Shown here: positions 2,342-62,541 of the stretch, piece after piece
How positions within the stretch are numbered: the stretch's first letter is position 1
Layout of the letters: every line of letters starts with the position of its first letter
Assembly: GCA_951406725.2 (NCBI GenBank)
Contig: OX597829.1
Location: 13,640,001-13,704,000 of the forward strand
Source: Octopus vulgaris
Lineage: Eukaryota
Reading direction: 5' to 3'
Length of the DNA: 64,000 nt
Notes under the pieces: generated by a model
The model's input: the letters and a program-made list of their open reading frames with translations, nothing else
Told to the model about the DNA's origin: nothing
The model's database searches: none
Program-made: the position numbers and the translations under genes

Positions 2342-2492
<151 letters not shown>

Positions 2493-2880
2493 AACTTTTT
2501 ATTGTGGCCACACAGGGCTAAACACAGAATAAAAATGGACGAAATACAATGTAGAGTTTTTTTTTCGAGGTGGGATGGGTGGGACATACAAAGAAAAAAA
2601 AAAGGTTCGATCAATAGGGATCTGTATAAAAATATAATATATATATATATAAATAAAGTTCACAGTTTAGGCGTAGCCCTGGAAAGAAAAAGCTACAAAA
2701 AAGACCAAGGTCACCTCAGACAGTTCGAAAATGAACACATGAGTAAGTCGCCTTACCTCTCGTTGTCTCTTTTGGTCACAGATTTACGCTTAAAATAGTG
2801 TCGCCTTTCATACTGACCATTTTTGCCACTTTTACCCACTTTTTATTAAAACATTCGTTCGACAAAGACTTCCTCTCTAG
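2493..2880 (-). mobile_element. 5'-truncated Tx1 copy (ORF2 C-terminus plus 3' UTR)
   Basis: Closely matches 19452-19855; flanked by CATA/GATA repeats on both sides. Confidence 0.92.
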
Positions 2881-3068
<188 letters not shown>

Positions 3069-3452
3069 ATGTTTCTAGAAATTATCTTTACGGTGCTCCT
3101 TGTTTTGTATTCTTGTTCTTGTATTTCCATCTGAACCTATCCCATCCAACTTCTTATAATTACTCAGAATCGATTTATTTCCTTTTCATTGATATTAAAA
3201 AAATAAATATGTTGATTATATTTTGATAGGGGACATATTGGCACCTCTACCCAGATATGTTTTAATACTTAGTGCATGTACAAATACTTTCACCGTTGAC
3301 TAACGCCTCTGGCACGTTGACTTGACCTCTCAAGACAAATCTGGCAATCTTCAACAGAAACGCACGACCTATGATCCCTATAACTCCAGCCGTTGGTCTA
3401 TCGAAAAAAAAAAGAAAACAAGAAATGGAAAAGAATAACTAAACAAAAGGAA

Positions 3453-3550
<98 letters not shown>

Positions 3551-3729
3551 ATAGATACATACGTAAACGAATAAAAGGCTATAGCATTGCATTTCAGTCA
3601 GTAGTGCGATAGCATTTACTTTCAGTTAAGTAGAAAGGATATTTTTGCAACAGATGGTAATAGCTTTCATGTGGCTTTTCCATACATATAGCAATTTATC
3701 GACTTCTTATAACCAAGCATGTGGCCATT

Positions 3730-4015
3730 TTGTTCTTATTTTTGTTGTTTTCTACTCTTAGGTGAGTTCTGAGCCAGCAGGCTTGGGATCAACAGTGTTC
3801 CAGCTGTGACCACCATGTCTTCTTGCATTCAGATATAAAATATCAAAAACTGCACCATAAGGTACATAATCAAGAATTTGATATTACAGCGGCCATATTT
3901 TTTGTAGTTTAACCCCGAGTTAAATCCGATCCAGCAAATATATAATCAAATGAGTTCCAGCTGTGACCATCCTGTCTTTCTTTTCAGATAAAATATATAC
4001 AGGACCACAAGGTAA
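3730..4015. repeat. Two tandem diverged copies of an old interspersed repeat (core gttccagctgtgacca)
   Basis: Core at about 3797 and 3954; reverse-complement relatives (gtcacggctgga) near 17750 and 19020. Confidence 0.55.
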
Positions 4016-4280
4016 TATCAGAAACTTTCTGACTGCTCTCTGTCTGTTTGTATGTCTGTCTGTCTGTCTCTGTCTGTCTGTCTCTCTCTCTCTCTGATTG
4101 TTCGCTTAAATGTAAATACATGCGCACCTTATTATAATTAATGTGTGTGTGTGTGTGTGCACATGTATATATGTTTGTGTGTATATATGTATATATACAA
4201 TATAACGTACACAGATAAATATTGATATATACATATATACTTACAATCACGTACATTTGTATATAAATATATATGCACAT

Positions 4281-6923
4281 TAGGGTTATGACTTTTTCAC
4301 AACCTATTAACCCTATCATAAAAATCAGGAAACTAACGTTTATTTTGTTTTATAGAATAAAACGTCAACTCCAACTTAAGAAATCGATCACCACTTTTGA
4401 CCCAAATCATGCAAAATTCTTGTGGAATTCATAACGCCTACTCAAGTTTTTACCAAACTTGGAATGCTGACTCAATGCAATGCAGAAATAGTATATCTGA
4501 AATGTCAGCTTTCTAGTTGAAGTAGTATCGGAGTTACGAGCATTTACTAGGTGGCACTAGATTCACACTTCAGTATTTCCGCTGCCTAAATCCTTGTAAA
4601 CGCAAGAGATGTGGAATAAAAGTGTATTTATACATTTTTAAAGATTACTGAATTGAAATTGCTCTATTCAAAGGTTCAAAAGTAGGCTATTTTAAGACAG
4701 AGGCCACTACAAGCATTCGATAACATACAAAATTAAAAATAATACATATTTTAAACTTTATAGGTTTAATTCCTATTTTAAATAACTGTATAAGAAAAAT
4801 GGTGCTGAGTGTTAGTAAAGTTTTAAACATAACAAAGAATTAATATGTTCAGTTAGATAAAAAAAAATTTGAAGATGAAGTTTCTCCTTCTTTTTACAAA
4901 CATCATAAAGATCTTGAAGCCACTTGATTGCCCGTTCTGCACTCTGATTTGTTCTGGGAATTTCCAGTTTTGATGGTTCTGGACACCAAAAGTTTTTCAC
5001 AGAGTTCAATACTTTTTTTAAGAACTTGCAGGCTACCACATAAATTCTGATAATCATGTGCATTAAACATTTGGCCAGTAAACCAAAAATCTGCCCAGCT
5101 GTCAGAGATGGATCGACAAACATTGAGAAGCAAAACTCTTTTCTCTGGTATGTCAAAAGAGCTAGTATTGCTCGAGAAGTCATCTTGCATTACTTAAGTT
5201 GGGTATTTTCTGAAACTTTACAGTGGGAAATTTGCCGGTTTCTTCAAAGAAATGAAAAACTCCGATCAACTGAAATAGAAATTTCATTTAAACTCGCCAT
5301 ACTGTTGATTCAGTAATCTTTTCGCTATTGTTGAAATTAGCCTGGAGTTTCTCGTAATTATTTACAAGATCTGGGATGAATGTATATTCATTATTGGGAA
5401 ATGACTGTTTTTCTCGAAGTTCGCTATCCATTTCAACACGAAGAATTCTACCAAGGATATGACACTGATAACCAATAAATAACGGTTCTTTCAAACCCTT
5501 TCGAGCAATGTCTTTGCGACAGAATGACAATGTCATTTCTTTTCCCAGCGTTCACACCCGTAGTATCAGCGACAATCATTTTTACACAGATTGTATTAAT
5601 CTAAAACTGCTGTTATTCTTTTCAAAACAGTATCGGCTTTCCCGTTTGGTAATTGGAGTACTTCTACCTTAACATCTACTGTTCATTCTTTAAAACTAGC
5701 ACTCGGTATTCTTGGTCATCAATATGTTTACCATCAAAATGCAATTACCAGTTTTACTAATGTAATGTTTTCTTCATTTTCTCTTTTAGTTTAACAGCTT
5801 CTTTGATAGTCGAGATAATTGTCAACAAATTGTTGCTTCTTGCTGAGTTGATTGCTTGGAAGATATTACTAACTTAGTTGCAGCTCCAGTTTTGCTATAC
5901 TTCCTCCTTGTTTGTGTGGATTCTTCATCTGATCTTTCAGTCTCTGCTTCAGCTGTTGACGATGGCAATGGAGTTGCTCTGGTTGAAGTTGACATTAAGG
6001 ACACATTTCTTTTGGATGGATAGTTTTGGAAGTGGCTGCCTGTCCATTTCCATACCCAACCTGTCCCTTGCTTTCAATTTGAAGATCATATAACCTTCTA
6101 TCCTCACTGCACAGCCATTCACCGTTTTCCTTCGTGGTGTCAAAATTTCCTTTCAGTGAATCGTATTTTACTCGTTTTACACATTTATCGTAGGTATTCA
6201 GCACTTTTTCTACTTTTGCATGTACATTTTGAATTGATAAATATGGGAAATTTAATTTCTTTTGCCATAAAAAAGTTACTTCTTTCGAAGTTTACTTTGT
6301 ACTTTCTTTCCTTCCTTTGGTGGTACCTCCAAGGTATAGGGAGCGACCGACAATTTGAAGTTTCATTGGTATCCTGCAGTTGTTTTCCAAAGAATTATCT
6401 TCTAGAGCAACAGGTCTTCTTTTCCTATGTGAATTTTGGAATTGCACGAGATTCGTCGTCCAAATTTTTGTTTCTTTGTGTGACACAAGCACTTCTCTTA
6501 TGAGGCATTATTTTAGATACTTTAGTTGGGCAAGGCTACTATTCTGAAAGGCAGTTAATATGGTCAGAGTTTTTAGCGTCACATAAATAAAAAGGAGAGG
6601 AAGAGGATATTTCCTAATGTAGGGCCTAAGTGGTAACAAATTGAAAACTTTAAAACTCCCAAACTACTTAAACTTGAAAGCTGAAATTTGAGATACACTG
6701 CTTCTGCATAGCATTAAGTCAGCTCACCAAGTTTGGTAAAAACTTGAGTAGTTATTATGAACCCCGCTAGAATTTTGCATGATCTGGTTCAAGAGTGGCG
6801 TTAGATTTCTTCAGTTGGGGTGATGTTTATTTTTTTTAACTTCCCTACTTATATAAACATTTTCATTGACTTTTGATACAGCAAATTGGTTGCTTCCCAA
6901 AAAATCAAGAAGTGATAAACCTA
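4281..6923 (-). mobile_element. hAT-superfamily (hATm-like) DNA transposon, decayed
   Basis: Termini TAGGGTTATGAC...GTGATAAACCTA, roughly 250 bp imperfect TIRs, 8 bp TSD atgcacat/atgcatat. Minus-strand fragments LHFDGK, VADTTGVNAG, YQCHILGRIL and TNQSAERAIK resemble hATm transposase motifs. Confidence 0.85.
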
Positions 6924-7003
6924 ATGCATATACATACATGAGTGTGTACTTGTATATATGAGTTATATAAATTGATATATAAATGAATACATACGTTTAC
7001 ATA

Positions 7004-7057
<54 letters not shown>

Positions 7058-7227
7058 CGTGTGTGTGGAAATATCTATCTACCCATACATATATATACAC
7101 ACACACATACACGCACATACACACACATGATATAAAACATCGGATTTTGTTTATTCTAACTTGTATTGGTTTATTTTTTATTAGTTGACATTTCTATATT
7201 TCAGATTCTATATGTGACTGTTTAATC

Positions 7228-7350
7228 ATGTCATCTACAAGAGAAGCCTTGGAACCGTCTGAATTTCAAAGAAGCCGTATTGTAGGTTAATCTGAAGGTG
7301 GACTTTGTGTAAATTTGCAGAAAACCCTGAGATTCCACTTTCTACGATTA
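7228..7350 (+). mobile_element. Tc1-like transposase N-terminal fragment
   Basis: Translates MSSTREALEPSEFQRSRIVG*SEGG, similar to the Tc1 paired-like HTH start; cut off by (TA)n. Confidence 0.55.
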
Positions 7351-7509
7351 ATATATATATATATATATGTATATACGGTGTACATTTAAACACATAAGAA
7401 GTAACCATCATAGGAAACCTAGCACGCTAGAAAGAATAGCCAAAATCCAAACCACTATTAGGGATAAATTTCGAAGGGAATGAAGAATAAAAACATTTAC
7501 CATCTATCT

Positions 7510-7579
7510 CCTGGACCATGGTTTCTAGCTCTATATTAGCAAATTAAATTATTTGCCAGGCGGAGCTTTCATCATCAGG
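7510..7579 (-). ncRNA. Type I hammerhead ribozyme-like motif (Penelope-associated)
   Basis: CCUG-aUGAUGA-a-AGCUC...GAGCU-a-GAAA-CCAUGG-UC-CAGG: stems I and II pair, stem III is palindromic, GUC site; core C3 is A. Confidence 0.7.
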
Positions 7580-7744
7580 TACGCCAAGATCAAACATATA
7601 AATACGAGGTAAAATCTAGCTTGTGCCCCGTGCTTATATATTATAACTTTTCAAATCCAACGCGCAAGCAATTGAAAATAATGCCGTCATTTCTTCGAAA
7701 ATTTGCCAAAATTTATCAATAATTAATAATATTAATTTTTATGT

Positions 7745-8105
7745 GTTTGAGGTGGCACGAGTTGAATAATAGGTATTGTTTAGAATATGTGGGTTTATAG
7801 AAGATGTCTGTTTCGATGTGGGTATTGACTATTTTATTTAGGATGTCAAGAAAAGGGAATTGTTTCCTGCTGTGCTCCATGGTGAATTGTATGTTGCTAT
7901 AATATTGTTAAGTATTATTTTGAAATCGAGGAGTTTGTCCATGATATCTTTCCAAAGTATAAAGAAATCATGCAAATACCTCTTCCAGTTATCCTTTAAA
8001 TAGCAATGAAATGAGGTGCCATATTTTTGTAGTGATGATTGATATATTTTAAGCTCTAGGTAACCCATTACAAGGTTCGCAATCACTGGACCAGCTCGGG
8101 TTCAC
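7745..8105 (-). mobile_element. Penelope-like reverse transcriptase remnant
   Basis: ANLVMGYLE, WKRYLHDFFILW (decayed RYIDD) and downstream FLDIL...TDIFYKPT are typical of Penelope-like RT. Confidence 0.8.
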
Positions 8106-8276
8106 GAGAAAAAATAATTCACGAAAAATAATTTGCGAAGATACCATTGACTCTGTTATTAACTAGTGTAACAATTTTAAAATGATAATAACAGAATCAA
8201 TAATATAGGCGATTACGGGCCCAGATTTTTAAAAAGCATTAAATAGCTAAAGGATTAAAATTAATCAAAGGAATAT

Positions 8277-8591
8277 TAAGTATGTCTACCTGCTGTCTAA
8301 GTATGTTTACTTACTAAGTATGTCTACCTTCGGCGCAAAACGAATCAGTTGCAGCGCAGACTTCAACACGATGGGTTGGAAGTTTCTATCATGGTAACGC
8401 ATGCTGAGGAAGCTAAGGCTATTTTTGCCAGTGCAGAAACCGGTCCACGGGAATCCAAATACTTGAATGTGCGTTGGGAGATTGTCATAGCGCGTTTGCC
8501 TTCGGACGGTTCATTTCTGTAGTTATTATCAGTGTATTTTGGTGTTTAAGAAAAGTTTTGACAGTTATTTCCAGCAGGTAGACATACTTAG
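8277..8591. repeat. Short inverted-repeat module, possible MITE or DNA transposon remnant
   Basis: taagtatgtctacctgctg at 8277, two partial tandem copies, and the reverse complement cagcaggtagacatactta at 8572. Confidence 0.5.
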
Positions 8592-8747
8592 ATTTGTTAT
8601 ATATAATTTTTGTATACATCTATTAATTTTGCCCATACAGTTTTAAGCTTGCGGCCACTAACATTATTATCTCTCTTGAGTATTAATGTTCCATATATAT
8701 ATATATTACTAATAGTTGTCTTACGTGTTTTCTACATGTAACTCCCA

Positions 8748-9069
8748 TTGAAACGATGCTCCACCCACCATACACCATATTCTCCAGACATTACCCCATC
8801 TGATTATCATTTATTTCGCAGTCTTCAAACTTATTTGAACGGAAAAATATGAATTCTGTAGGCGAGGTCAGAACAGTACTGAAGGAGTATTTTTCGTCAC
8901 AGACAACTGAGTTTTAGAAGAGAGGCCTTGCAAGTCTACTAGATAGATGGAAGAGCATTGTAGAAAATGAAGGATAGTATATTTTGCATTAAAAAATAAC
9001 TTTGTTTATCGTAATTTTGAAAAATAAAAGAAGTATAAAAGGCTGCATTATTTATGGGATGAACCAATA
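8748..9069 (+). mobile_element. mariner transposase C-terminus and right TIR
   Basis: HPP..YSPDITPSDYHLFRSLQ motif, then ...RWKSIVENEG and a terminal gggatgaaccaa-TA. Confidence 0.85.
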
Positions 9070-14645: not shown

Positions 14646-16613
14646 CTGTTTGACTTTTGCTTTATGTCTGTACAAGTTGGCTCCAAGTCTCACCCAGAGA
14701 CCTCAAGAGACAACAGGTTGGAAGTTCTGTGCCATATATTTGGGGTTTTTTTTTTTTTTTGGTGTTGTACTAGTGAATGTCTAAAAAAAAAAAAAAATAA
14801 ATAAATAAATAAAAAAAAATTGTTTTAAACATTGGGATTACACAGAGAGTATTTTGCGTAGATATGAGCAGTTCCCATGAGCACTATCTTTTGAATTTCT
14901 GCCATTTTGGGGTTTCCTAGTATCTGAGTTAGGTAGCAATTAGTCCCTTTCGCTATCATTCCCAGGGCACCTATGACAACAGGTATTGTTTTAGTCTTCA
15001 GCTTCCACATTTTGCTGATTTCTATTTCAAGATCTTTATATTTGCTCAGTTTTTGGTAGGTCTTGACAGACACGTTTATATCGATTGGGACAGTCATATC
15101 AATGAGGAGGCATGTTCTTTGTCTGAAGTCTTTCAATATGATGTCTAGCATATTTTCATCTACCTTCCTGTCAGTTTGAATGGTGAAGTTCCAGAGGAGT
15201 GAGATGTGGTCCTTTTCAAGCACTGGAGGGGGTTTGTGTTCCCATCAGTTTTTTTCATGGGGCAAATCCAGGTTTTTGCAAATTACACAGTGAATATAAT
15301 GTTCAGCTTTATATGCCTGTTGAGATACTCTGTAGGCGCTAGACGACTGCACTTGGAGACAACATGGTCAATGGTTTCATTTTTTTGTTGACATCCACGA
15401 CGTGTTGGGCTACTGCCGTTCTTTAATATGTTGGCCTGGTAGTTTCTTGTTGGTAGGCATTGATCTTGACCTGCTATGATAAACCCTTCTGTTTCAGATT
15501 TTAAGCCAGAGGCCATTAGCTATTGATGGGTCAGAGCTTTGTCAACATCTGCATTATTCGCCCTCTTTGGGTATTTGCCATAGATAGTTTTTTCTTGCCA
15601 TTTATCATTCAAAATATCTAAGGCCGCAGTTTTAGCACGGGTTTTCATGCGCTTAGCCTTTTCTGTGCTTGTTTCTTGTATGTATAATTCCGAAATTTGT
15701 TTTATTCGGAATTCACTTAGATATTCCTTTGCCTGTTTTGTTACTGAGTATGGTGCTTTCTTGTTTTCATGTTTTGAGACAAGTTTTAACATCCAATCCT
15801 CAGAGTTTTTCAGGTAGGTGTCTAGGCCAATTGTAGTAATCTTCATTGTTATTGCCACTTATAAAAGTCCACGGCAGATAAAGTCGTTCTGTATCTGCCT
15901 TAAGGTGGTGCATTCTATGCATTGTCAACAGTTTTCGTATTTTTCTGTCAAGATTACATATTTCAGTAATTGACCAGTTAACGATATTGAAACTGTAAGT
16001 CACGACTGGTGTGGCTAAAGCATTCATCGCTTCGATCCTGTTTCTCGCATTCAGCTCTGTCTTGAGTATTGCACTCACTCTGCGATAACATTCTCTCCTG
16101 ATCCTTTCCTTCATCACTGAATGCCTTATTCCGTCCCCTTCAATTACCCCTAGGTACTTGTAGCTCTCCGCTGGGTCTAATTCTTTTATGACATTCTGCT
16201 GGTCAAGGTTAACGTTAGATGTTTCTGTCATTTTTCCTTTGATAAAAGTAGCACATTTATCGAGGCCAAATTGTATTCTGATGTCGTCACTGAATCGTTA
16301 GTAAGCCCTTGAGTTGTTGGTCATTTTTTACAAAGAGCTTTAAATCGTCCATGTAAATGAGATGATTTATATTTTTATCAAACATTTTATATCCGTACTG
16401 TGCGTCATTGAGCAATTTTGAATGAGGTATTAAGGCTAAACAAAAGAGGACTGGTGATAGTGAGTCACCCTGGAAAATGCCACATGAAATTTTTACATCA
16501 CCAGCATTTAGAGATTCATTGTCACTGTTCAAAGTTAGTGTGGTTCTCCATGATCTCATACTTACAGTCAAAAAGTTTCGCAGAATAGGTGCTATTTTAT
16601 ACATTTCCAGGCG
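14646..16613 (-). mobile_element. R4/Dong-like RLE LINE, 5'-truncated
   Basis: GIFQGDSLSP, YMDDLK, YKYLG, ETIDHVVSKC and the RLE region DIILKD...LLIDMTVP...KLSKYKDL; (ATT)n at both ends. Confidence 0.92.
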
Positions 16614-19753: not shown

Positions 19754-22700
19754 TTACAGATTTACGCTTAAAATAGTGTCGTCTTTCATACTGACCATTT
19801 TTGCCACTTTTACCCACTTTTTATTAAAACATTCGTTCGACAAAGCCTTCCTCTCAATTCTCATCCTCCTTTTCAAGTGGTACTTGAAAAAGTTGACGAG
19901 AGACAGACCAGAGAGGAAGGTGTTTGTTTGCAGTCCTTTCAAACGCGTCCACCACACACATTCTTTCGCCATAGCCATCAGCGTAACGAAAACCGTTTTC
20001 CCTTCCCGTTTAAAGGAAGGTGGTGGAACAATATTCACGATAGACTCGGCCGATAAGCGGGTCCGTCCTACACGCAACAACAGCTGTTCGATGAAGGTCC
20101 ACAGCTCTTAAATATCTGGACACTGCACGAGTGCGTGCAGAACGGTTTCGTCGCTCTGACCGCATCTCGGGCAGGTCGGTCTGGTGATGGTTTTCGAACC
20201 GTGCCTGTAGCTCTTCTTTCGAACAGGTAGTGCGTCTCGATTGCATTGCCAAGGCAGGGATCTCTGGAAGTTATCCATACGCCCCGGCCCGAACATCGTC
20301 CTGAACAGGTGGGTTAGGAATTTCTCGTCGACGCCCAGGTTTGCCCCGAGTGTGTCGTCGGACATCCCCTCCACTAGTCCTCTATAGAACGCTTTAGTCG
20401 TTTGTAAGTTGCACAAGTTTAACCCCGGTCGGCAGAGCTGCTGTAGAGCTTGGCGACACTCTCGGTGTCAATCGCCCAGTTTCGGTCTCTTCTTGATCCA
20501 CGTTTGCAGTTCGGTCAGTGAGACTAGCTGCGGGAAGGCGCGCCTCACATACCTGTTTACCGTCATCGATGAAGTTCCAGAGATGTCGCAGTCTCAGCGC
20601 TTGCCTGCGCATCATCAACCACGGCATGCCCAGTCCTCCATTTAACGGATGTTGACAGCAAATGGACCGCCTCACCATCGGAACGCCACCCTTCCACAGG
20701 AAGCGGAAGAGTATGCGCTCCAGTTTGGTGATGGTGGCGTCGGGACAAGGTACGACGGTCAGGCGGTAATCGATAACGGATGCGATGTACGCGTTCGCCA
20801 CCTCTGCCCGACCTTTTAGAGACAGCTTTTTCTCGGCCCATGTTTGGCTGAGCGCAACCACTCTACTCGTGATCTCGTCCCAGTTCTTATCCATTTGGAG
20901 GTCCGGACTGAACTAGACCCCGAGCAATTTAACCGGTCCGTCCATCCAGCGTCCCACTATTGAGCCGCAGTCGGACGGCATGGGCTTGTTTCTCCAGGTC
21001 CCGAGTAGCAGACCCACTGACATTTCCGTGTTAATTTTCGCTCCCGTCACCGTTTCGTATTCTTTTAGTGTCTCGCCTATCATCTGGATGTGTTTGTCGC
21101 TCGACACTATGATGATGACATCCTCCGCATATGCTGACCCGCTCGTCCCGCAACCTAGTAGCGGCTCGAGAGTCAATACATACAGAAGCGCCGCAGGGGA
21201 CACCCCTGACGGACCGAACGCGTGATGTCAAACGGTTTCGATAGGTGACCGTTCACCCGAATTACCGATCGGATGCCGCTATAGAAGGCAGCAATCCAAC
21301 CGCGAAAGACAGGACCGAAGCCAGCCGCCCTGAGGACGGCCGCCAAGTACCGATGGTCGACCCTATCGAAGGCTTTAGACTGATCCAAATTGATCAGCGC
21401 CCCACCCATGCCAGGATCCTTAATTACCCTGTTCACAATGTAGCGCATCAGATGGAGGTTGACATGTACGGTTCTGCCCAGCACGGCGCATGTTTTTTGC
21501 CATGTCGACCAGTTTACCAATGACAAGCGCCAACATCTCGGCTATTACTTTGGCCAAAATTTTCAAATCTGCGTTGAGCAGAGTGATGGGCCTGAAATTA
21601 TCTATAAAATTCCCCTTGTTTGGGTCTTTCTTCAGCAACGTCACTGCACCTCGGCTCACGAAACCGGGGATTCTCCCGTTTTGTTGCCAGTTGCAGTAGA
21701 CTGATGCAAAGAGGTCGTCAAACAAGTCTGGCATTTGACAATACAGCTCGTATGGTAAACCATCCAATCCAGGCGACTTATTCCTCGTGCAGCCCGCCAT
21801 CGCATCCCGCATGTCAGCGGCTGTGATGGGACTTTCACAACACTCCGCTTCTCTTGCCGAGAGCCGCGCAGGTCGGTCAGATATGCACTGAAATCTATCC
21901 CGCGTTCCGACCCACTACTCGCACCTAACAGTCGAGCAAATTGCTGTTGAAAGGCCTCACACATCCATTCGGGTTCGAGAAAACTGCATCCCTGTTGATC
22001 TATTAGAGACCGAATGGTGGCTCTGTTGCCACGCTGCGCCTCCGCTACCCGGGCCTCTCGCACAGCTTCGATCCCTTCGTTCCTTAAGGCACGCATTTTA
22101 GTTCTGACGACGCAAACTTCGTGCTTGGCGTTGAGGTGTTGGTCGAGGGCCATCCTCGCAGCCAGCCCGTTGGTTGCGCTGCCAGTGGTAAGTGCCTCTT
22201 CTAGTTTCTTAACCAAGTCTCTCTCTACTCTATTTTGATCTATCGCTAATTCCTTGCTAAACCTAATTGATTCCGATTTTATTGTCATTTTCAAGGCGAA
22301 CCACCAGCGGTTGATAACGATGGTTCCTGGTAACGCCCTCTTAATTAACTCGCTAATCCGGTTCCTGTAAACCTGTCGCGCTAAGAACGACGTGTTCAGT
22401 TTCCAATAACCGGGACCCTGTCTATGTGTCTTATCTAAGTCGAGCGTACACATCACAAATTTGTGATCTGTGTAGCTGACTATTTTAAATTGTGGACATC
22501 CTACACTATCCCTTTCCTCTGTCCTGCATAAAATTCTATCTAGATAAGATCTCGACGATCTGACACGGTTTGTCCAAGTCCACGTTGGCACATTCGGATG
22601 ATCGAGTCGGAACCTGTCAGACAAATGGAAACGTCTGAGTAGGTCTTTGAGGCACTTACACCCACTTCTATTCCTATCCATTCCCACATAGTCTAGATGC

Positions 22701-22909
22701 GTGTCCAAGGTAGCGTTCCAATCCCCTACTAACAGTAAAGGTCTAGACGATTTGACCGCCAACATGGACGCGAGGGCCCGCAGCTTGCTGAGTCTGGTTT
22801 CACTGATAGCTACTATATCCACGTTCAGTGACTTGATGTCGTTTAGAAGGTAACCTTGCTTCCAAGCCGACACCAAGCCACGCTCATTCACACAACCTAA
22901 TTTAAGCAT
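19754..22909 (-). pseudogene. ORF2: APE endonuclease, reverse transcriptase and C-terminal zinc finger, with frameshifts and deletions
   Basis: ISET, VGDWNA, SYLDRI, YTDHK, GYWKLN, KSPGLDGL, NFRPITLLN, DQSKAFDRV, VRQGCPL, YAED and CPRC...ETVLH motifs. Confidence 0.95.
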
Positions 22910-28317: not shown

Positions 28318-28831
28318 TTTTCCTTACATGTCTTGAGTTCGTTGCACTGAAGAGCATAGAATGCATATTCTGCATTGATTGCGAAATCACAGGTGATATG
28401 TAACTAAATTCTGTTTTTAAATGACTTGCTTTGAAGTTTTGCATTCGGTAAAGTTTGTTTATTTTAGTAGTTTTGACTGCAAGGGTCCCTTCTAGCGTGT
28501 CGGTACCTATGAATAATAGTACCCTCTATATAATATAAATAAATATTTTCAAAGTGGAAAAATTTACAGATTTTTTGTGGTTGGTTAGCAAGCTACTTAC
28601 CACACAGCCACTCCTGCGCCTGTTTATTTATTTGAATTAACTATATATATATATATGAATAAATGAAAGAATGGAGTCGAACGAAGATGTTAACAACATT
28701 CCTTTACTCTCGTCACATGTTTTCATTCCAAAGGAATAAAGGGTGCATTATGCAATCTTCTCATCAGGAAAGAAAGCGAGCCTCTCTCGACAACAAGACA
28801 AACAAAAACTTCGATGATTCATTCACCTACT

Positions 28832-40327: not shown

Positions 40328-41473
40328 GACAGTTAGCTTGTTAAAAATATATATATTAACGACAGAGGCAGTATTAATACTGGGAGGTAATAACTTATCC
40401 CCAGATACCATGTGAGAAACTCTCGTATTGCCTTTTGGTGCAAAATACATCTCGTTCATACCACTAGTGGAGAGAAAAGTCCCCACTACCTCCAGATCAC
40501 GTGATTTTGACCTTTCTTGGCCTTGCCAATGATAGACGCTCGAACGCTCGAGATAAAAACATTTTCCTGGGGAAGATTTTCATTGACAACTTTTAACTCC
40601 AGTTCAAAGCCGAACAATTTATACTCAAGAGTTGACTTTTAAATATTTCTATATATTTACTGTTTACAACATATTTGTTATATTTTTATTTGTGGACATC
40701 GATATTTAATCCCTTACATGCTACAAGTATCACCACATAATTCGTTGCCGGTGTCATCAGACAGTTTTTGTCTTTTAACAAATACATGATGGGAATTATT
40801 ATTGCTTCCTACCTTTGTTATAGTTATTAAGTCGGATTATTTTATATTCCTTAAAGAGTAACCATTCTTGCTCAAAATAATTTTGTTTATCTTCATATTT
40901 ACAGACTTGAGCAAGACAGTCACTGTCATATTGCTTTCCTATTAACATCTCTATCTGAATGATGCTTCTAAACATTGAAGGTCATAGCTGTTAGTCCAAT
41001 CTGCCTACATCTCGAATGGCACTAAAATCTCCAAGAAGACCGAGTAGCTAAAATACATCTCGCTAATTCTGATACTGACCAATTCATAAGGCCAAATGGC
41101 GTTGCCAAATCATGCGTGGAGTGAACCATGTTTATACTTTCTGCAGGCAGAGCGTTGTCACGATCAGATTTCTTTTACTCTTTCGTATTTATTTACAGTT
41201 CTCTCTCTCACTCCGCTCTTTCACCCCCACTCTCTCTCTCTCCTTCTCTTTCTCTGCTCTTTCTCCCTCCCCCTCTCTCTGTCATTAATGAATCATTTGT
41301 ATTTGACGTTCTCATCTTGTCTATTATACTTGTAGTTGTCATTTGACTCTATTGGCTCTGTTCTCAAGCCATGTAGGTACGAGCCTGTACTGTGATACAC
41401 ATATGCACAAACGCGCGCACACATACACACACACGCACACGTATATATACATATACACGCACACCTACACACA

Positions 41474-41521
<48 letters not shown>

Positions 41522-41582
41522 CGCCATGATGGACCGTTAGTTCCTACAGGCATTTTTTCTCTCCTTGTTTCTTTTCTGTGTA

Positions 41583-41620
41583 TCTTTCTGTCGAAGAGCG
41601 TAGGCTCGAAACGTAAAAGA
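41583..41620 (+). ncRNA. Minimal type I hammerhead ribozyme motif
   Basis: UCUUU-CUGuCGA-a-GAGC(GUAG)GCUC-GAAA-CG-UA-AAAGA; palindromic ACGU stem III; core A6 is U. Confidence 0.75.
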
Positions 41621-42248
41621 CATACTATTTCAATTCCTGAGCACCATACTAATACATTTGCTTGTTTGTACTCCACCTGCCTTCGTCTTTTGTTTATTTT
41701 CGTAAACCTTCCATATATATATATATATATATACATATGCACACTCCCATATATACAAATATATGTATACACGCGCGAATTTATGCATATATATATATAT
41801 ATATATATACATATACGTATATTCAATCGTGCACGCGAGAACAAGTATATACATATGATCATGTAGGCATATATTTATAAGTATGTTGACGTGTTTAATT
41901 AGATGAAAAGTTTTAGGAGGTCTTCTTTTATCAGTTCTGCGTGTATACGGACGTGTATATTTTCATTCGCACTATCTCTAATGCTTCTTTGGAGATTATA
42001 CATAGTAACGTATGAGCGCGCGTGCTCGTGATTATATAGGTGCGTATGTGTATCTGTGATTATGAGCAGACACACATACACACGATGCGTGTGTATGTGT
42101 ATACATGTGTCGGAGGCGGGGGGGATAGGAAGAAAATCAGAAGATATAAGTTGAGTATTTACTTCTCTCATAAATTGATGCTCATAGGTGACTGTTTCGC
42201 AGCCAACATCATGCAAAAATATATATGTATATATGTGTGTATGTATGC

Positions 42249-42296
<48 letters not shown>

Positions 42297-42314
42297 TATG
42301 TATATGTATGTATG

Positions 42315-42347
<33 letters not shown>

Positions 42348-42630
42348 ATTTATATATATATATATTTATATATATATATATATATATTTCAACAATTGAG
42401 GGTAAAATTAATTAATTATTAATCAATTTCACCAAGTGTTCAGTATGCAAAGGGACCATTTAAGGCGAATTCAAATTATTACATTATATAAAAGGGCTTA
42501 GTAAAATAAATTACTTTGCCGCATACTGAACTCATTAGAAATAGCAGCTAAAAAACTTTTTAAAACTATTTCTAATACTTAAAGAAAACCTCTCTCATAT
42601 AATGTTTGCTCAATTCATATAGTGTTTGCT

Positions 42631-42678
<48 letters not shown>

Positions 42679-42924
42679 GGCAGATCCTCTACCCGTGAAC
42701 CTTTTCTAGCACTCTCTAGTATTCGACCTGAGGGGGTCCAAAACTTCCCCTGCTGCCGCTAAGTAGATTAATGGAATTGCGGTTATCCATGGAATGAATA
42801 TTGAAGTAGTTCCCCGTTGCCTTCTCCAGGCAGGTAGAATTTGAACTCGGAATGTAAGTGTGCCGGAAAATATAGCTATATTTTCCAGCACACTACAATC
42901 TGCTGATGCGTTAACAATTGTAGT

Positions 42925-43032
42925 ACACTTCCACCAACTAGAGCAAGAAAACCACACGCCGCCGGGTCGGGGGTTCGAACCTACGGTCTAGTGATCGTTA
43001 CTGCAACATCCTAACCACTAAGCTACGCGCCT
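42925..43032 (-). mobile_element. tRNA-like SINE head
   Basis: A box TAGCTTAGTGG and B box GGTTCGAACC on the minus strand; no complete cloverleaf. Confidence 0.75.
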
Positions 43033-43301
43033 CTTCAAAAGACACAGATAACATAAGTACCATGCTTTAAAAAATATGTACTGGGCTTGATACATTTAAC
43101 TAAAATTTCTTCAAAGCGGTCTCCCAGCATGGTCGCAGTCTAATGACTAAGATAAGTAAAAGATAAAAGATAAAAGATTATACACCCCCATACACGCACA
43201 GACACATACGCACACATAAACACACATGTATATATATACATGAGTACCGCTGGCGATATTTTTCCTCTGTCTTCCCTTCTCGGGATCTTTCCTTCTCCTA
43301 T

Positions 43302-43336
43302 GTTTCCGACGAAGAGCTCCGCTCGAAACGTTAAAC
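43302..43336 (+). ncRNA. Minimal type I hammerhead ribozyme motif
   Basis: GUUU-CcGACGA-a-GAGC(UCC)GCUC-GAAA-CG-UU-AAAC; core U4 is C. Confidence 0.72.
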
Positions 43337-43435
43337 CCTCCTTCTTCCCTTCTTTCCTGAGCGTCCAATAATACTTTTGTTCCACGTCCTCGCGTTGTTG
43401 TGTTTTTTGTTTTTTTTGTGTTTTCTTGTTTGGAT

Positions 43436-43493
<58 letters not shown>

Positions 43494-43495
<2 letters not shown>

Positions 43496-43868
43496 CGCAA
43501 AAGTGGTTGCGTGGTAAGGGTAAGTAGCTTGCTTCCCAACCACATAGTTCCGGGTTCAGTCACACTGCGTACCACATTGGGCAAGTGTCTTCTACTACAG
43601 CGTTGGACCTACCAAAGCTCTGTGAGTGGATTTGGTAGACGGAAACTGAAAGAAACCCGTCGTATATATATATGTACGTATGTATGTATATGTATGTATT
43701 TGTTATTTGTGTCCATGTTTGTCCTCCCACCATCGCTTGACAACCGACGCTGGTGTGTTTACGTCCCTGTCACTTAGCGGTTCGGCAAAAGTGACCGACA
43801 GAGTAAGTACTAGGCTTACAAAGAATAAGTCCTGGAGTCGGTGGCCCACCATGGCCGTTATTAAATGA
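43494..43868 (+). mobile_element. tRNA-derived SINE with an internal microsatellite
   Basis: A-box-like gtggttgcgtggt and B-box-like gggttcagtc; relatives at 26920-27178 and 28580-28621. Confidence 0.82.
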
Positions 43869-55886: not shown

Positions 55887-58800
55887 TAGTTTTATTTTTA
55901 TAGCGTGCTTTCACTTCACTACCGAGCGCAGCTCTGTGTGCCTTGGCTTTGTGCTGTGATTTGTTGTGATGCTCTGATGGTTATTGTATGGAAAGTGTTC
56001 TGCGTAGGATGTGTGCAGTGCCTAGTAGTGCAATTTTCTGTATGTTATATGTGTTTGTAAGTCCTGGTGTTTTTGTTATGTATTTGTCTGAATATTTTTT
56101 TATCATGCCTCATGCACCTACTATGATAGGAATTGTTTCTGTTTTTAGATTCCACATTCTGGTTACCTCTATTTCCAGGTTTTTGTATTTTGAGAGATTC
56201 TCCATTTCTGTTAGAGACACGTTGTCATCTGCCGGTATTGATACATCAATTAGAAAGCATTGTTTTCCTTCATGATCTCTGACAACTATATCTGGTCTGC
56301 TGGCCTTAATTTCTCTATCTGTGTGTATCGGCATATCCCAGAGTATGGTTGCTTTCTCGTTTTCTGTGAACTTTTCTGGTGTGTGCCTATACCATCTTTT
56401 TTCTGTTGTTATTCCATAATGTTGGCATAGCTTCCAGTGTATGTAGGTTCCAACTTTGTCATGTCTGTGAATATATTCCTTCTTAGCCAGGACTGGGCAA
56501 CCAGAGATAATATGATTTATTGTTTCTTGTCCATCTCCACATATTCTGCAGTTACTTGTTATATTTCTTTTCATTACATGTTTTGGTAATCTCTGGTGGG
56601 GAGGCTTTGGTCTTGTGCTGCAATTAAAAATCCCTCTGTTTCTGCTTTGAGTCCTGAGCTTCTCAACCATTGCTGGGATTTTTCTTTGTCTATTTCTTTT
56701 GCGTTTAGTTTAGTCCAGTATTTACCATGAAGGGGCTTTTCTTGCCATCGTTTTATCATGGTTCGTTGCTGTTCTATTTTTAGTTTGGATTTCATTTGTT
56801 TTATAGCTTTTGTTGTTTCTTCATCTTCTTCTTCTTGTTCTTCATATTTATTAGGTGGTATGATTTCTTGTTTGTATTTGTTAGCTTCCTTAAATACTGA
56901 TAACAGTTTTTTGTTTTGCTCGTGTTTTGCCGCTATTTGTATCAGTTTTCCTTCCTTCTGAAGTAGATATTTTTGCAGTCCTATGGTGGTTATTTTATAG
57001 TAGTTTCCAGCTGTATAAGGCCTCTACCACCTACTATACATTGTATATATAGTCTTTCTATGTCAGATTTTGGGTGATGCATCCTAGACCTTGTCATTAT
57101 TTTTCTTGTTTTCCTATCTATTTTGGTCAGTTCATTTAGTGTCCAGTTAAGGATATTGTAGCTGTAACTTATAACTGGGACAGCTTAAGTGATAATACCT
57201 ATTATCTTGTTTTTAACATTGAGCTCTGTTTTTAGTATTGATCTAACTCGTCTATAATATTCTTTTTTTATTTTTTATTTTATTTGTGTGTGTTGTGTCT
57301 TATCTAGTTCATGGATTCCTAAGTATTTGTAAGTTTGGCTTTGGTCTAATTCTTTTATTTCATTGGTTTTATCTAGTGTGATGTTACTACTCTTAACTAG
57401 TTTTCCTCTTTTCAGGGTTACTTTGGCGCATTTTTCTAATCCAAATTTCATTTCTATTTCATTGGTAAATCCATGAGCTATCTTTAATAGTGTTTCCAGC
57501 TTTTTGTCATTTCCAGCGTATAGTTTGAGGTCGTCCCTATATAAAAGGTGGCTGATCGTTTTGCCGTAACATTTATATCCGCATCCAGTACTGTTTAGCA
57601 TATCAGATAGAGGTGACAGTGCCAAGCAGAAAAGGAGTGGAGAGAGAGTGTCTCCCTGGAATATTCCTCTTTTATGAGGATGGCTTTGGTTTTCATGAGT
57701 CCCTCTTTTGTTTGGAGCTGTTTGCCATTTATTCATAGAGTGCCCTATGAATTTTATAATTGTTGGTGCTACTTTGTTAATGGCTAGTGTTTAGAGGATC
57801 CATGTGTGGGGGATGCTATCAAACGCCTTTTTGTAGTCGATCCAGGCCATACCGAGACCTTTCTTCTTTCTGTGGCCGTCTTCAGTTATGATCATTTATT
57901 GATCATTAGTTGATCTTTACAGCCGTATGAGCCTTTGCGGCATCCTTTCTGCTCTTCTGGAAACAGGGTGTTTTCGGCCAGGTGCTTGTTCAACCTTTGC
58001 GATATCACTGCAGTAAATGCCTTGTACATTGTAGGGAGACAGGTTATTGGTCTGTAGTTTTCTGGTTTTGCTGTCTCATTTGATTTGGGAATTAAGATGG
58101 TTTTCCCCTTCGTGAGCCATTCAGGCATTGTCTCTGACTCTGCTAGTATGTTGTTAAAGTTTTCAGCTAGCGTTTTGTGCATTCCTGTTAGATATTTCAA
58201 CCAGAAGTTGGGGATCTTGTCATGCCCAGGTGCCTTCCAGTTGCTTAGTCTTTGCAGTGCCTGGGTGACATCTTCAGTTGTTATGGGGGTCCAAAGTTGC
58301 TCAGATGCTGAATGTGTTGTTTTAATACTCCTTTTTTTTGGTTGTTCGTTCGCCGACCATATTTCTCTCCAGAATTCTTCCACTTCTTCTGCCGTTGGTG
58401 CTGCAGTGATTACTATTTTATTTTTGCCAAGTTCTTGGTAGAACTTTTTGGGGTTGGAGTTGAACTTTTTGTTTTGTTCAAAGAAGCGCTGGCGTTTCTC
58501 GTACCGGCGGATCCTTTATGCTTTGGCAAGGAAATCTTGCTTTAGCTTTTCTTTTATCTCAGGTAAATCTTATTCTGTGATGTTATATTTGCGGAGTATT
58601 TTTGTTTTCTTTTTGTTGCTCAGTAGCTTTGATTGTCTACTGATTTCATTAAGAATCGACAGATCTTTTCTCATTTTTTGTATTTTGTTTTGGATGTTAT
58701 TTATCCACAGGGTTTGTTTGGGTGGTGGTACTCTTGTTTGGATGAGTTTGAGTGAGTATCCAGCTTTTTTTGTGGCTTCAGTGGCTGCTGCGTATACTAT

Positions 58801-59964
58801 GTCATTTAGCTCAGTGATATCGCTTTTTGTTTCAGTGGCTATTAGTTCCGTGACGGCTAGGTTTATGCTGTTTATAATCGATGTTGTTGTTTCGTCTATT
58901 TTGATTTTTGGGAGTGGTCGGTGGTCCATTTTGAGCTCTGTGGTTTTCAGTTCTTTGATTATTTCACTTTTTATATTATCATAATCATTAGGCTCCCCTT
59001 CGTTGTTTCCAGGTTTTAGCTTTGTGTCGCTTTCTTTCTTATTTATATGTTTGTTTGCCGTGTTTTGGCTTGCTGTTTGTCGTGTATTATTATGCATCCT
59101 TACGGTCTGGGGTTGTTTTTTGTTTACATCGCGTTTGTTGGGAATGTTACGTTTGGCTTCGTGTTTTACTGTTTATATTATTGGGCATTGTTGTGTGGCT
59201 TCTATCTACATTTTCCTGGTGTATTTTTTCTTTTAGACGTTCTATTTCTATTTCTGATATTTTTTGGGTTGAGAATGTATCTTCGTACGTTAGCTAGTTT
59301 ATTAGGGTTCATTGCTGTATCCAAGTCTATGTTATTTTCCTTCCATATTTTATATGTATGTGTTGTTGTGTTTTCATTTTTCGGGTAGAGCACTGCTGTG
59401 AAGTATGCGTGTAGGATAGAAATGTATTCCTCACGTGTCCATTTATGTCTTTTGGGTTTTATTTGCGGGACATGAGGAACAACGTCCGGCCCATTATTTT
59501 GACGGTCGTCATTTTCGTAGGGTACCGGTCCGTTCATTTCTGTTGTCACATTGTTTTGCACGTGTAGTTTTTCGTACATTTTATGTTGTAAGTTTAAAGT
59601 ACGTACCTCCCGATTGTTATTCTTGGGTTGAATAATATCGGTGGTATTTAATTTATTCGTAGTTCCTTTGTACATGGTGTTTGGGGTCGGGGATGATCTG
59701 GTGTTGATGGATCGTAATGTATCACGCATGTTTACATGTGTTGTGTTAGAGGTGGAGATGATATCGAGTCAAAATACATCATTTCGTTTCGAAGATAGTA
59801 ATAAACTTCAATTAGTATTACTTACTCGGATACAGTCCAATCCTTTGTTAGTAAATCTTTGGCTCCATACGATGTCCTTGTTTTCGATGTTTGTGGATAG
59901 ATTTCGGAGCTCTGTTTTATCGTTCTTACATCTTAAACGTCCCCCGGTGTATCCGTAAACGTCC
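55884..59964 (-). mobile_element. Near full-length R4/Dong-like RLE LINE, single ORF broken by frameshifts
   Basis: RHKWTREEY N-terminal motif, KAPGHD, NYRPITCL, GIFQGDTLSP, YRDDLK, CRICG...ETINHIISGC and RPDIVV...LIDVSIP; 3' UTR then (AAT)n on the sense strand. Confidence 0.96.
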
Positions 59965-60189
59965 CCTTTCGAGTGGGATGGGTTACTTGACCTGAAGAAA
60001 ATTCTAACTGGGCCCCACCTGCAAGGTCATGTGCTGTTTATCTTGATATGAGATCACCATGTCGCGCACATATGGTTGTGATGCATGTGCCTGGTGTACC
60101 CTTATCAGACGGGTAGTCATGATGGGTATATTGGGCTTCGTATATTTTACCCCAGTGTCACTTTGATGGCATGCACTGTTCTCTCACTC
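59965..60189. mobile_element. Third, partial copy of the TAA-flanked repeat, fused to the LINE 5' end
   Basis: Matches about 17188-17412 and 30936-31160. Confidence 0.88.
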
Positions 60190-60201
60190 AATAATAATAA
60201 T

Positions 60202-61248
60202 AATAGAAATCACTGCAGCACCAACGGCAGAAGAAGTGGAAGAATTCTGGAGAGAAATATGGTCGGCGAACGAACAACCAAAAAAAAAGGAGTGTCAAAA
60301 CAACAAACTCAGCATCTGAGCAACTTTGGACCCCCATAACAACTGAAGAGGTCACCCAGGCACTGCAAAGACTAAGCAACTGGACGGCACCTGGGCATGA
60401 CAAGATCCCCAACTTCTGGTTGAAATCTCTAACAGGAATGCACAAAAAGCTGGCTGGAAACATTAACAGCATGCTAGCAGAGGCAGAGACAATGCCTGAA
60501 TGGCTCACGAAGGGGAAAACCACCTTAATTCCCAAATCAAATGAGACAGCAAAACCAGAATACTACAGACCAATAACCTGTCTCCCTACAATATACAAGG
60601 CACTTACTGTAGGGATATCGCAAAGGTTGAACAAGCACCTGGACGAAAACAACTTGTTTCCAGAAGAGCAGAAAGGATGCCGCAAAGATCAACTAATGAA
60701 TAATAAAGCCATAACCGAAGACAACCACAGAAAGAAGAAAGGCCTCAGTATGGCTTGGATCGATTACAAAAAGGCGTTTGATAGCATCCCCCACACATGG
60801 ATCCTCGAAACACTAGCCATTAACAAAGTAGCACCAACCCTTATGAAATTCATAGGGCACTCTATGAATACATGGCAAACCGTGCTACAGCTCCAAACAA
60901 AAGAGGGACTCATGAAAAGCAAAGCCATCCCCATTAGAAGAGGAATATTCCAGGGAGACACTCTCTCTCCACTCCTTTTCTGCTTGACACTGTCACAATT
61001 CCTATCATAGTAGGTTCATTAGGCATGATAAAAAAATATTCAGACAAGTACATAACAAAAATACCAGGACTTACAAACACATATAACATACAGAAAATTG
61101 CACTACTAGGCACTGCACACATCCTACGCAGAACACTTTCCATACAATAACCATCAGAGCATCACAACAAATCACAGCACATACCTAAGGCACACAGAGC
61201 TGCGCTCGGTAGTGAAGTGAAAGCACGCTATAAAAATAAAACTACTGA
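60202..61248 (+). mobile_element. Inverted, 5'-truncated and internally deleted copy of the 55884 LINE
   Basis: 60202-60995 mirrors about 58418-57615 and 60995-61248 mirrors about 56136-55884; (AAT)n tail. Confidence 0.94.
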
Positions 61249-61251
61249 ATG

Positions 61252-61337
<86 letters not shown>

Positions 61338-61362
61338 TAATAATAATAATTATTATTATTAT

Positions 61363-62541
61363 GTTTTTTCCTTCTTTCTTCAAATTTTCTTCGGTTTCTC
61401 GCCGAGTGTTTTCCATACACCTAGGGCAGAGAAGCTCATTGTATGCATTCCCAGATTACACGCGCAAATTCTCAGATAAATTATTTTTTTAAAAATTAAT
61501 AAATAAATAAATTCATGGATGGATGTTGTTTCCACAGCGATAATGCTCTTCTCAGTATATAAGCCGTTCCAGTTAGTACGATTTTTGCACTTCCTGTAGG
61601 GATGGTGAGCCTTGAATCATTTCAAATAGGTTTCAGTACCTTTTTTTTATCATTCCTAGAGATCCTACAATCACTGGTACTGTAGTCGCCTTGAGATGCC
61701 ACATTTTTTCAATTTCTGTTAGCAGGTCTTTATATTTACTAATCTTGTCAAATTCTTTTGCCGCTATATTGTGATCGCAAGAGATACTCATGTCAATTAA
61801 TAAACACATCCTTTTTGTCTGATCTTTTATAATAATATCCGGTTTATTAACTTTTATAATCTTGTCGGTCTGTACGGAGAAGTCCCATAGAATCGACACA
61901 TTGTCTCCCTCAGTCACACCTTCAGGATGGTATTTATACCATTTGTCAGCGGTTTTGATTTTATAATACCGACATATTGTCCAATGTAAATACTGGTCGA
62001 CTCTGTCATGTCTTGCTTTATATTCTACAGGTGCTAAGATTCTACATCCTGAGATTAGGTGGTTTATTGTTTCAATCTCATCGTTACAGAATCGGCATTT
62101 TGGGTCAGCTCCATTTTTATCACATTGGCTTGGTAGTTCCAGGTTAATAAGCTTTGGTCTTGAGCAGCTAATATGAAACCTTCACTCTCTGCTTTTAGCT
62201 CTGAACTTCGTAACCATTGGTGCGTGTGTTTCTGGTCGACATCAGCTTGTTTGCTACGGGCCACATACTTGCCATGGAGACGTTTCTGTTCCCATCTGCT
62301 AGCTAATTTTTCATGTGCTTTTGTCTTTGCAGTTGATTTTCTTTTCTTTGCAGCTTCAGTTGGCGCATTTCCTTCAACCTGATAAATCTGGTGGGTATCT
62401 AAGAGATCAGCGGTGAATGTTTTGCTCTCTTTGAGAATAGAGTGAAGTTTTTTAGGTCTTTCATGTTTTTCAACAAGTTTTAGCATCCAATCGTTGGTTG
62501 CTTCAAGGTATTTGGCCAGTCCGATTGTGGTGAGAGTCACA
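61363..62541 (-). mobile_element. R4/Dong-like LINE 3' portion, another subfamily
   Basis: LHGKY, WLRSSELKAESEGFILAAQDQ and NKPDIIIKD...LLIDMSI; (ATT)n on both sides. Confidence 0.92.

What the first reader, a model, noticed from the sequence alone, without database searches (positions are those of the whole stretch)
41520..43444. Two ~200 bp (TA)n-flanked mini-elements carrying covarying minimal hammerhead ribozymes
Seen: segments 41520-41712 and 43241-43444 each sit between TA tracts and contain a type I hammerhead fold with the same stem II (GAGC/GCUC, different loops) and a palindromic ACGU stem III. Stem I differs in sequence but still pairs (UCUUU/AAAGA versus GUUU/AAAC). Both also share downstream blocks (ttcctgagc..., taatac, tccac). 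Known: minimal hammerheads with palindromic stem III occur in Penelope-like element terminal repeats and retrozymes and can cleave as dimers. Inference: a family of small non-coding ribozyme retroelements or solo Penelope repeats that targets (TA)n. Each copy has one core deviation (A6U, U4C), so these copies may be inactive or may be a variant core.
Basis: partly seen in the sequence, partly recalled or inferred. Interest (0 to 1): 0.78.

Follow-up and report, generated by a model that had tools for sequence, protein, structure and literature searches.

The report
Penelope retrotransposon tails with altered hammerheads
The two 200-base segments are cut-short tail ends of two very abundant Penelope-like jumping genes, an arrangement already known; the one unusual point is that each lineage multiplied to many thousands of copies while carrying a hammerhead-ribozyme core change that would be expected to weaken self-cleavage.

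Summary
Both hammerhead folds are real and lie as described. They are not stand-alone mini-elements. Each is the 5'-truncated 3' end of a different Penelope-like retrotransposon family (A and B). Longer copies run into an RT + zinc-linker + GIY-YIG reading frame and occur as pLTR-ORF-pLTR tandems. The motif has 33,653 exact matches in this genome. Copies share a fixed 3' end at (TA)n, have staggered 5' ends and are mostly solo. The core 'deviations' are not decay: U6 stands in 96 of the first 100 family-A matches, across all four N7 states, and C4 in 73 of 100 family-B matches. U4C recurs in a third hammerhead family. Minimal hammerheads in truncated Penelope ends are published (PMC4209133), and the scan noted the same kind in other genomes. 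A family-wide A6U core was not found in my searches, but the most relevant paper (Lunse 2017) was not available. Most likely the fold is kept while cleavage is weak or dispensable, in line with in-vitro data (PMC11167929). Cleavage and circular RNA were not tested.

The parts
41477..41518 (.). (TA)21 tract on the 5' side of E1
41521..41712 (+). E1: 5'-truncated 3' end (pLTR) of Penelope-like family A (GTAG loop)
   Evidence: 81.5% over 200 bp to the last part of the 4.1-kb unit in L091; nearest 39 copies 92-95% identical; one of them, L192, reaches back into the end of the ORF
41583..41620 (+). Minimal type I hammerhead of E1; core CUGUCGA (A6U at 41591); predicted cut after 41615
   Evidence: cut site inferred from hammerhead numbering, not observed
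41713..41733 (.). (AT)n tract abutting the 3' end of E1
43229..43238 (.). short TA run on the 5' side of E2
43241..43443 (+). E2: 5'-truncated 3' end (pLTR) of Penelope-like family B (TCC loop)
   Evidence: 92.5% over 214 bp to the 3' end of the 6.0-kb unit in L135; nearest 39 copies 94-97% identical
43302..43336 (+). Minimal type I hammerhead of E2; core CCGACGA (U4C at 43307); predicted cut after 43332
   Evidence: cut site inferred, not observed
43444..43493 (.). (TA)25 tract abutting the 3' end of E2

Best explanation
E1 and E2 are the 5'-truncated 3' ends of two protein-coding Penelope-like retrotransposon families, each abutting a (TA)n tract, and their minimal hammerheads carry family-wide core changes (A6U, U4C) that likely leave cleavage weak or dispensable. 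Mechanism, shown: full units have pLTR - RT / CX2-5CxxC linker / GIY-YIG ORF - pLTR; dispersed copies keep a fixed 3' end about 120-135 bp after the core and lose the 5' part at staggered points. Inferred: the element's protein nicks (TA)n and reverse-transcribes from the fixed 3' end, probably helped by a short TATATA that the unit itself carries at the pLTR-5'UTR junction; synthesis usually stops after about 200 bases, leaving solo tails. Inferred: the hammerhead can close stem III only as a dimer through the ACGU palindrome, so solo copies such as E1 and E2 are probably inert, and even in tandem parents the fold is under more constraint than full catalytic speed.
For: Walking 5' from the motif reaches RT, linker and GIY-YIG motifs in both families (Pfam RVT_1 E 1.7e-5 and GIY-YIG E 0.0012, both below curated cut-off). 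Tandems: L091 (hammerheads 4,180 bp apart), L135 (5,969 bp), L228 (4,534 bp). In 82 position-ordered copies: (TA)3 lies 110-150 bp after the core in 59 of 82, against 262 of 1,680 control windows; 5' homology has a median of 68 bp, is at most 100 bp in 68 of 82 and over 200 bp in 11; 4 of 82 have a same-strand neighbour within 1 kb. Exact 24-mers of family B fall 147, 74, 42 going 5': steep but gradual. Core: family A position 6 is T 96, A 2, C 1, G 1 of 100 while N7 is T 43, A 24, C 22, G 11 and C3, U4, G5, G8, A9 are 95-100 of 100 (my hand tally). Family B position 4 is C 73, T 25, A 2 of 100, with only 3 CCAACG as CpG-decay control (hand tally). ORF-bearing copies carry the same states. Runs from three organisms show the same mix. 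Between A and B the ORF is 68.6% identical in DNA and the hammerhead is the only non-repetitive pLTR match found (26 bp, 84.6%). Literature: most minimal hammerheads are single and tied to truncated PLEs (PMC4209133); single changes in the CUGA turn give low activity (PMC9901934); hammerhead catalytic mutants did not affect PLE insertion in vitro (PMC11167929).
Against: No cleavage data exist for these sequences. C3, G5, G8, A9, G12-A14 and stem pairing stay fixed across subfamilies, which also fits retained catalysis. U4C is a known natural viroid variant that stays infectious, and A6C has low but detectable activity (PMC3088659). The PAc hammerhead cleaves only with protein, so protein could rescue these cores. 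Junction-bearing family-B copies show T4 in 6 of 14 parsed (15 of 30 loci not parsed, 1 was a family-A neighbour), somewhat more than 25 of 100 overall, though n is small. The first-100 lists come from the start of one contig. Target preference cannot be fully separated from an element-encoded TA tail. The short-sequence tree does not fix the direction of change.
Confidence: 0.78

Rival explanations
1. Same elements, but the variant cores are fully functional in vivo: dimer formation plus binding of the element's protein offsets A6U and U4C, and cleavage in the upstream pLTR defines the RNA's 5' end.
For: All other core positions and both stems are held across subfamilies while N7 varies freely. 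U4C recurs in another hammerhead family: 12 of the first 100 matches, all 12 linked to one flanking variant. U4C is tolerated in a viroid. A PLE hammerhead is protein-assisted.
Against: Single changes in the CUGA turn gave low activity and no rescue except the C3-G8 swap (passages). No compensating change near U6 or C4 is seen in the alignment. The ACGU duplex alone is predicted at only -1.7 kcal/mol. The PAc study found no RNA-seq ends at the cut site.
Confidence: 0.3
2. The short copies are a self-propagating non-autonomous family (SINE-like solo pLTR or retrozyme) with its own start site about 80 bases before the core, mobilised in trans, possibly through circles.
For: 5' ends pile up 55-86 bp before the core and thin out beyond 86. 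Short copies vastly outnumber long ones.
Against: 5' ends are staggered at many positions. Exact 24-mer counts decline gradually, 147, 74, 42. Several ends coincide with ATAT-like microhomology to the TA tract. No tandem arrays. Long and short copies share the same subfamily variants.
Confidence: 0.12
3. E1 and E2 are the two ends of one composite element, or a selected pair that cuts out the 1.7 kb between them as a cross-family dimer.
For: Same strand, 1.7 kb apart, same ACGU palindrome.
Against: They belong to different families. The spacer holds microsatellites and unrelated repeats and no PLE ORF. At about one match per 83 kb, close pairs occur by chance; 4 of 82 sampled copies have one within 1 kb.
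Confidence: 0.02

Closest known systems
Minimal hammerheads (min-HHR) in pLTRs of metazoan Penelope-like elements (Cervera and de la Pena 2014, PMC4209133)
   Same: Type I, stem I of 4-5 bp, extra base after A9, G10.1-C11.1 pair, palindromic 15-16 region, U-rich 5' flank; mostly single motifs from truncated PLEs; fits their consensus line except at one core base.
   Different: Core is CUGUNGA (family A) or mostly CCGACGA (family B) instead of CUGANGA. The only core variant I saw there is U3-A8. Stem II is 4 bp. Copy number (over 30,000 exact) exceeds their examples of about 2,000-9,000.
Neptune / Nematis clades of EN+ Penelope-like elements (described in Craig et al. 2021, PMC8557442)
   Same: RT followed by CX2-5CxxC linker and C-terminal GIY-YIG with CCHH; partial tandems, 5' truncation, inverted copies, microsatellite bias.
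   Different: Clade not resolved by phylogeny here. The RT motif looks Neptune-like to me from recall only. All ORF copies examined are broken.
PAc (Poseidon) element of Anolis (Frangieh et al. 2024, PMC11167929)
   Same: pLTR hammerhead, AT-rich targets, fixed internal RT start, tail extensions.
   Different: PAc has an intact catalytic core overlapping the ORF start and is of the Penelope/Poseidon clade; here the hammerhead lies several hundred bp before the ORF and the natural core is altered.
Non-LTR retrozymes of animals (PMC7229834; bioRxiv 10.64898/2026.07.22.740005)
   Same: Type I hammerhead, repeat unit of a few hundred bp, related to PLE pLTRs.
   Different: Retrozymes are tandem arrays with canonical hammerheads and circular RNAs; these copies are solo, 5'-staggered, minimal, and continuous with a coding element.
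Natural hammerhead core variants (Perreault et al. 2011, PMC3088659)
   Same: U4C is recorded in a viroid; A6C in a phage, with low activity.
   Different: Those are described as rare variants. A6U does not occur in that text. Here the variants dominate lineages with roughly 17,000 and 9,000 exact copies (extrapolated from the first 100 matches).

Membership tests
EN+ Penelope-like element | RT followed by C-terminal GIY-YIG endonuclease in one ORF | tested here: met
   In longer copies of both families, not in the window; Pfam RVT_1 and GIY-YIG hits below cut-off. Frames are broken in the copies examined.
EN+ Penelope-like element | CCHH motif in the endonuclease | tested here: met
   Two Cys inside the GIY-YIG core and two later His in both families (translations).
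EN+ Penelope-like element | Partial tandems forming pLTRs; frequent 5' truncation | tested here: met
   L091, L135, L228; 5' extents.
Neptune/Nematis clade | CX2-5CxxC linker between RT and EN | tested here: met
   Present in both families.
Neptune/Nematis clade | RT phylogeny with reference elements | not tested
   No reference PLE proteins were fetched.
PLE minimal hammerhead | Short stem I, extra base after A9, G10.1-C11.1, palindromic stem III, NUH | tested here: met
   H17 is A, C or T in 79 of 82 copies.
PLE minimal hammerhead | CUGANGA core | tested here: not met
   A6U in 96 of 100 (family A), U4C in 73 of 100 (family B); minority subfamilies keep CUGANGA.
PLE minimal hammerhead | Self-cleavage as a dimer | not testable with these tools
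   Needs a bench assay; only contigs were available, which cannot show RNA ends.
Non-LTR retrozyme | Tandem arrays of 150-450 bp monomers | tested here: not met
   4 of 82 copies have a same-strand neighbour within 1 kb (two pairs, 474 and 810 bp apart).
Non-LTR retrozyme | Canonical type I hammerhead with 6-bp helix I | tested here: not met
   Stem I is 4-5 bp in 64 of 82 copies and never longer.
Non-LTR retrozyme | Circular RNA | tested here: inconclusive
   Only contigs; a few single-contig back-joints in runs not on record as RNA, none in the run guessed to be RNA that joins the ends.
SINE-like non-autonomous element | Defined 5' end independent of the coding parent | tested here: not met
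   Staggered ends and gradual decline (80, 38, 81).

The most novel reading that the evidence does not exclude
Two dominant Penelope lineages of this genome each fixed a different crippling change in the hammerhead's CUGA turn and then spread to about 17,000 and 9,000 copies, and U4C arose again in a third family. The hammerhead fold would then be kept as a non-catalytic or deliberately slow RNA element (protein-binding site or folding switch), a natural knock-down experiment showing that PLE hammerheads are selected for something other than fast cleavage.
Probability: 0.35. Interest if true: 0.6.

Novelty: new variant of a known kind. Interest (0 to 1): 0.36.

Why it matters
The role of hammerheads in Penelope-like elements is open: PMC8557442 calls it unclear, and PMC11167929 found cleavage unnecessary for insertion in vitro. 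This genome holds sister lineages with canonical and altered cores in the same sequence context (A6 versus U6; U4 versus C4), which gives ready-made matched pairs for cleavage and transposition assays. It also shows that descriptor searches requiring CUGANGA would miss most of the 30,000-plus motifs of these two families. The elements themselves, and the two copies in the window, are ordinary truncated transposon ends.

Tried and rejected
Rfam: nothing at gathering score; weak hits were microsatellite artefacts. Folding z-scores of the bare motifs: uninformative. An alternative helix between the downstream GAGC block and the 3' strand of stem II: predicted probability ranged from 0.0 to 0.85 in 10 copies, 0.0 in E1 and 0.18 in E2; consensus folds of families A and B showed no pair changed on both sides; not claimed. 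Core changes as CpG decay: rejected for C4 versus T4 as the main cause (3 CCAACG against 25 T4 of 100), although single copies such as L228 do show decay. Idea that upstream pLTRs keep canonical U4 and downstream ones C4: suggested by 2 tandems, not upheld (8 C4 and 6 T4 among 14 parsed family-B junction copies of 30 loci; pLTRs within a tandem are closer to each other, 0.95, than between tandems, 0.92). Sharp 5' start site: not supported. Tree of 82 short sequences (80 of 82 sampled copies plus E1 and E2; 2 dropped as too short): separates A from B with support 0.999 and puts the three A6 copies near the base of A, but with weak support and no outgroup; direction of change not settled. Expression: no RNA holder listed; contigs only. 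No tRNA gene in the window. Literature searches that gave no report of these families or of a family-wide A6U core. Lunse, Weinberg and Breaker (PMC5785218) was not held and may cover such variants; supplement file 1 of PMC4209133 was not searchable.

Full report
Observation. The window is G000:C16:13640001-13704000 of a 2.8-Gb assembly. Both hammerhead folds are present as described. A relaxed descriptor finds 3 hits in the window (41588, 43306 and a third at 28347) against 0.13 per shuffle in 30 shuffles. The folds are not unusually stable on their own (z about -0.8) and Rfam does not recognise them. The joint pattern has 16,801 + 16,852 exact matches in the genome and none when reversed.

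Two families. Fixing the stem II loop splits the motif into family A (GTAG loop; 17,677 exact matches) and family B (TCC loop; 12,654). E1 is in A and E2 in B. E1's 39 nearest copies are 92-95% identical and E2's 94-97%.

Link to a coding element. Searching with the 5' part of a longer A copy gave loci whose homology runs 1.5 kb and more upstream into RT, a CX2-5CxxC linker and GIY-YIG. L091 is a full tandem: (TA)n, a truncated pLTR with hammerhead, a short TA run, the ORF region, a second pLTR with hammerhead 4,180 bp after the first, then (TA)n. L192, of E1's own subfamily, reaches back into the end of that ORF. For B the same walk gave L135 with hammerheads 5,969 bp apart around RT, linker and GIY-YIG; L228 is a second tandem. 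Pfam gives RVT_1 (E 1.7e-5) and GIY-YIG (E 0.0012), both under the curated cut-off. A and B proteins are 51-69% identical over aligned pieces. Their DNA aligns at 68.6% over 1,638 bp of ORF, and in the pLTR the only non-repetitive match found is the 26-bp hammerhead (low-complexity filter on). All ORF copies examined are broken.

Shape of the copies. I took the first 82 of the 100 listed matches, in position order on one contig. In 59 of 82 a (TA)3 run lies 110-150 bp after the core start, against 262 of 1,680 control windows. Upstream homology has a median of 68 bp; 68 of 82 end within 100 bp, 11 exceed 200 bp, and 44 of 82 have a TA run at the 5' junction. Four of 82 have a same-strand neighbour within 1 kb and five an opposite-strand one. 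Exact 24-mers of one B subfamily decline 147, 74, 42 in the 5' direction. This is steep 5' truncation, not a defined mini-element, although the pile-up of ends at 55-86 bp leaves some room for a preferred stop. The internal junction of tandems carries its own short TATATA (41 exact matches for B; also in L091), so part of the 3' TA may be element-derived and could pair with the target; that is inference.

The core changes. With all eight core positions left free, the first 100 family-A matches read T at position 6 in 96, while N7 takes all four bases (43, 24, 22, 11) and C3, U4, G5, G8 and A9 are 95-100 of 100 (hand tally). The first 100 family-B matches read C at position 4 in 73 and T in 25; the CpG-decay control CCAACG occurs 3 times, so most T4 copies are a real canonical subfamily (they group together, support 0.885). 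ORF-bearing copies carry the same states. Contigs of four runs from three organisms show T at 43307 in 22-28% of depth and no other letter above 3% at 41591 (depth is not copy number, and one run may be the source of the assembly). A scan of the fetched loci found other hammerhead families, mostly with canonical cores. One of them (4,595 exact matches) has C4 in 12 of the first 100, all tied to one flanking variant, so U4C is present in a separate lineage too. Stem I shows one clear compensatory pair between A and B; stem II is invariant.

Mechanism. Shown: the anatomy above. From the literature: minimal PLE hammerheads are inactive as monomers and weak as dimers (PMC4209133, parts 1-2 of 4 read, plus supplement passages). 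Single changes in the CUGA turn give low activity (PMC9901934, passages). A6C is slow and U4C is a tolerated viroid variant (PMC3088659, passages and section 8). A PLE hammerhead needs the element's protein to cleave, and catalytic mutants insert normally in vitro (PMC11167929, parts 1-2 of 4). The CX2-5CxxC linker marks Neptune and Nematis and is hypothesised to drive microsatellite bias (PMC8557442, passages). Inferred: target-primed reverse transcription at (TA)n from a fixed 3' end with early termination; solo copies inert; cleavage weak or dispensable in the parents while the fold is held. The main rival is that dimerisation and protein rescue the variant cores.

Comparison and novelty. 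As elements these are new members of a known kind, and the scan has noted the same arrangement in other genomes (unchecked notes). They fail the retrozyme tests (PMC7229834, passages; bioRxiv 10.64898/2026.07.22.740005, part 1 of 5). What I did not find in print is a family-wide A6U core, or U4C dominating a PLE family. Lunse et al. (PMC5785218) was seen only as a title in a reference list (PMC6765202, passages) and could already contain such variants, so the novelty claim is provisional. Verdict: observation confirmed, interpretation partly supported, new variant of a known kind, interest 0.36.

Noticed in passing
window 28339-28408 (+): A third minimal hammerhead with a canonical CUGAAGA core, long stem II and stem III ATCACAGGTGAT, starting just after a (TA)n tract; no match in the fetched loci.
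   Followed up: partly
window 42388-42633 (-): TA-flanked 245-bp piece, 89-95% identical to pieces in 6 fetched loci; there it is the tail of yet another hammerhead-bearing family with a canonical core, and in the window it is cut before the hammerhead.
   Followed up: partly
window 40740-40768 (-): Resembles the 5' half of the third hammerhead family (CTGATGA core) by eye; BLAST of 40560-40860 against fetched loci found nothing.
   Followed up: partly
window 43494-43830 (+) and 42945-43035 (-): Dispersed repeats that look like tRNA-derived SINEs (label recalled, not from a call); the first matches 97 of the fetched loci; ARAGORN finds no tRNA gene.
   Followed up: partly
G000, pattern: A hammerhead family with 4,595 exact matches, often as close inverted pairs or 3.4-kb tandems; mostly canonical, with a U4C subfamily.
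   Followed up: partly
L230-L259: Many family-B copies extend about 110-150 or 200-250 bp past the TATATA junction and stop, several inside inverted structures; may be PLE 'tails' from alternative RT start sites.
   Followed up: no
L002:1492-1534 (-), L023:1492-1534 (-): Two very divergent copies (about 68% to their nearest neighbour) also carry C4; L002's stem I is reduced to 1 bp in the standard register.
   Followed up: no
window 14800-16300, 20100-22900, 56100-62500: Broken reading frames that look like non-LTR retrotransposon RT and endonuclease pieces (label by eye, not searched).
   Followed up: no
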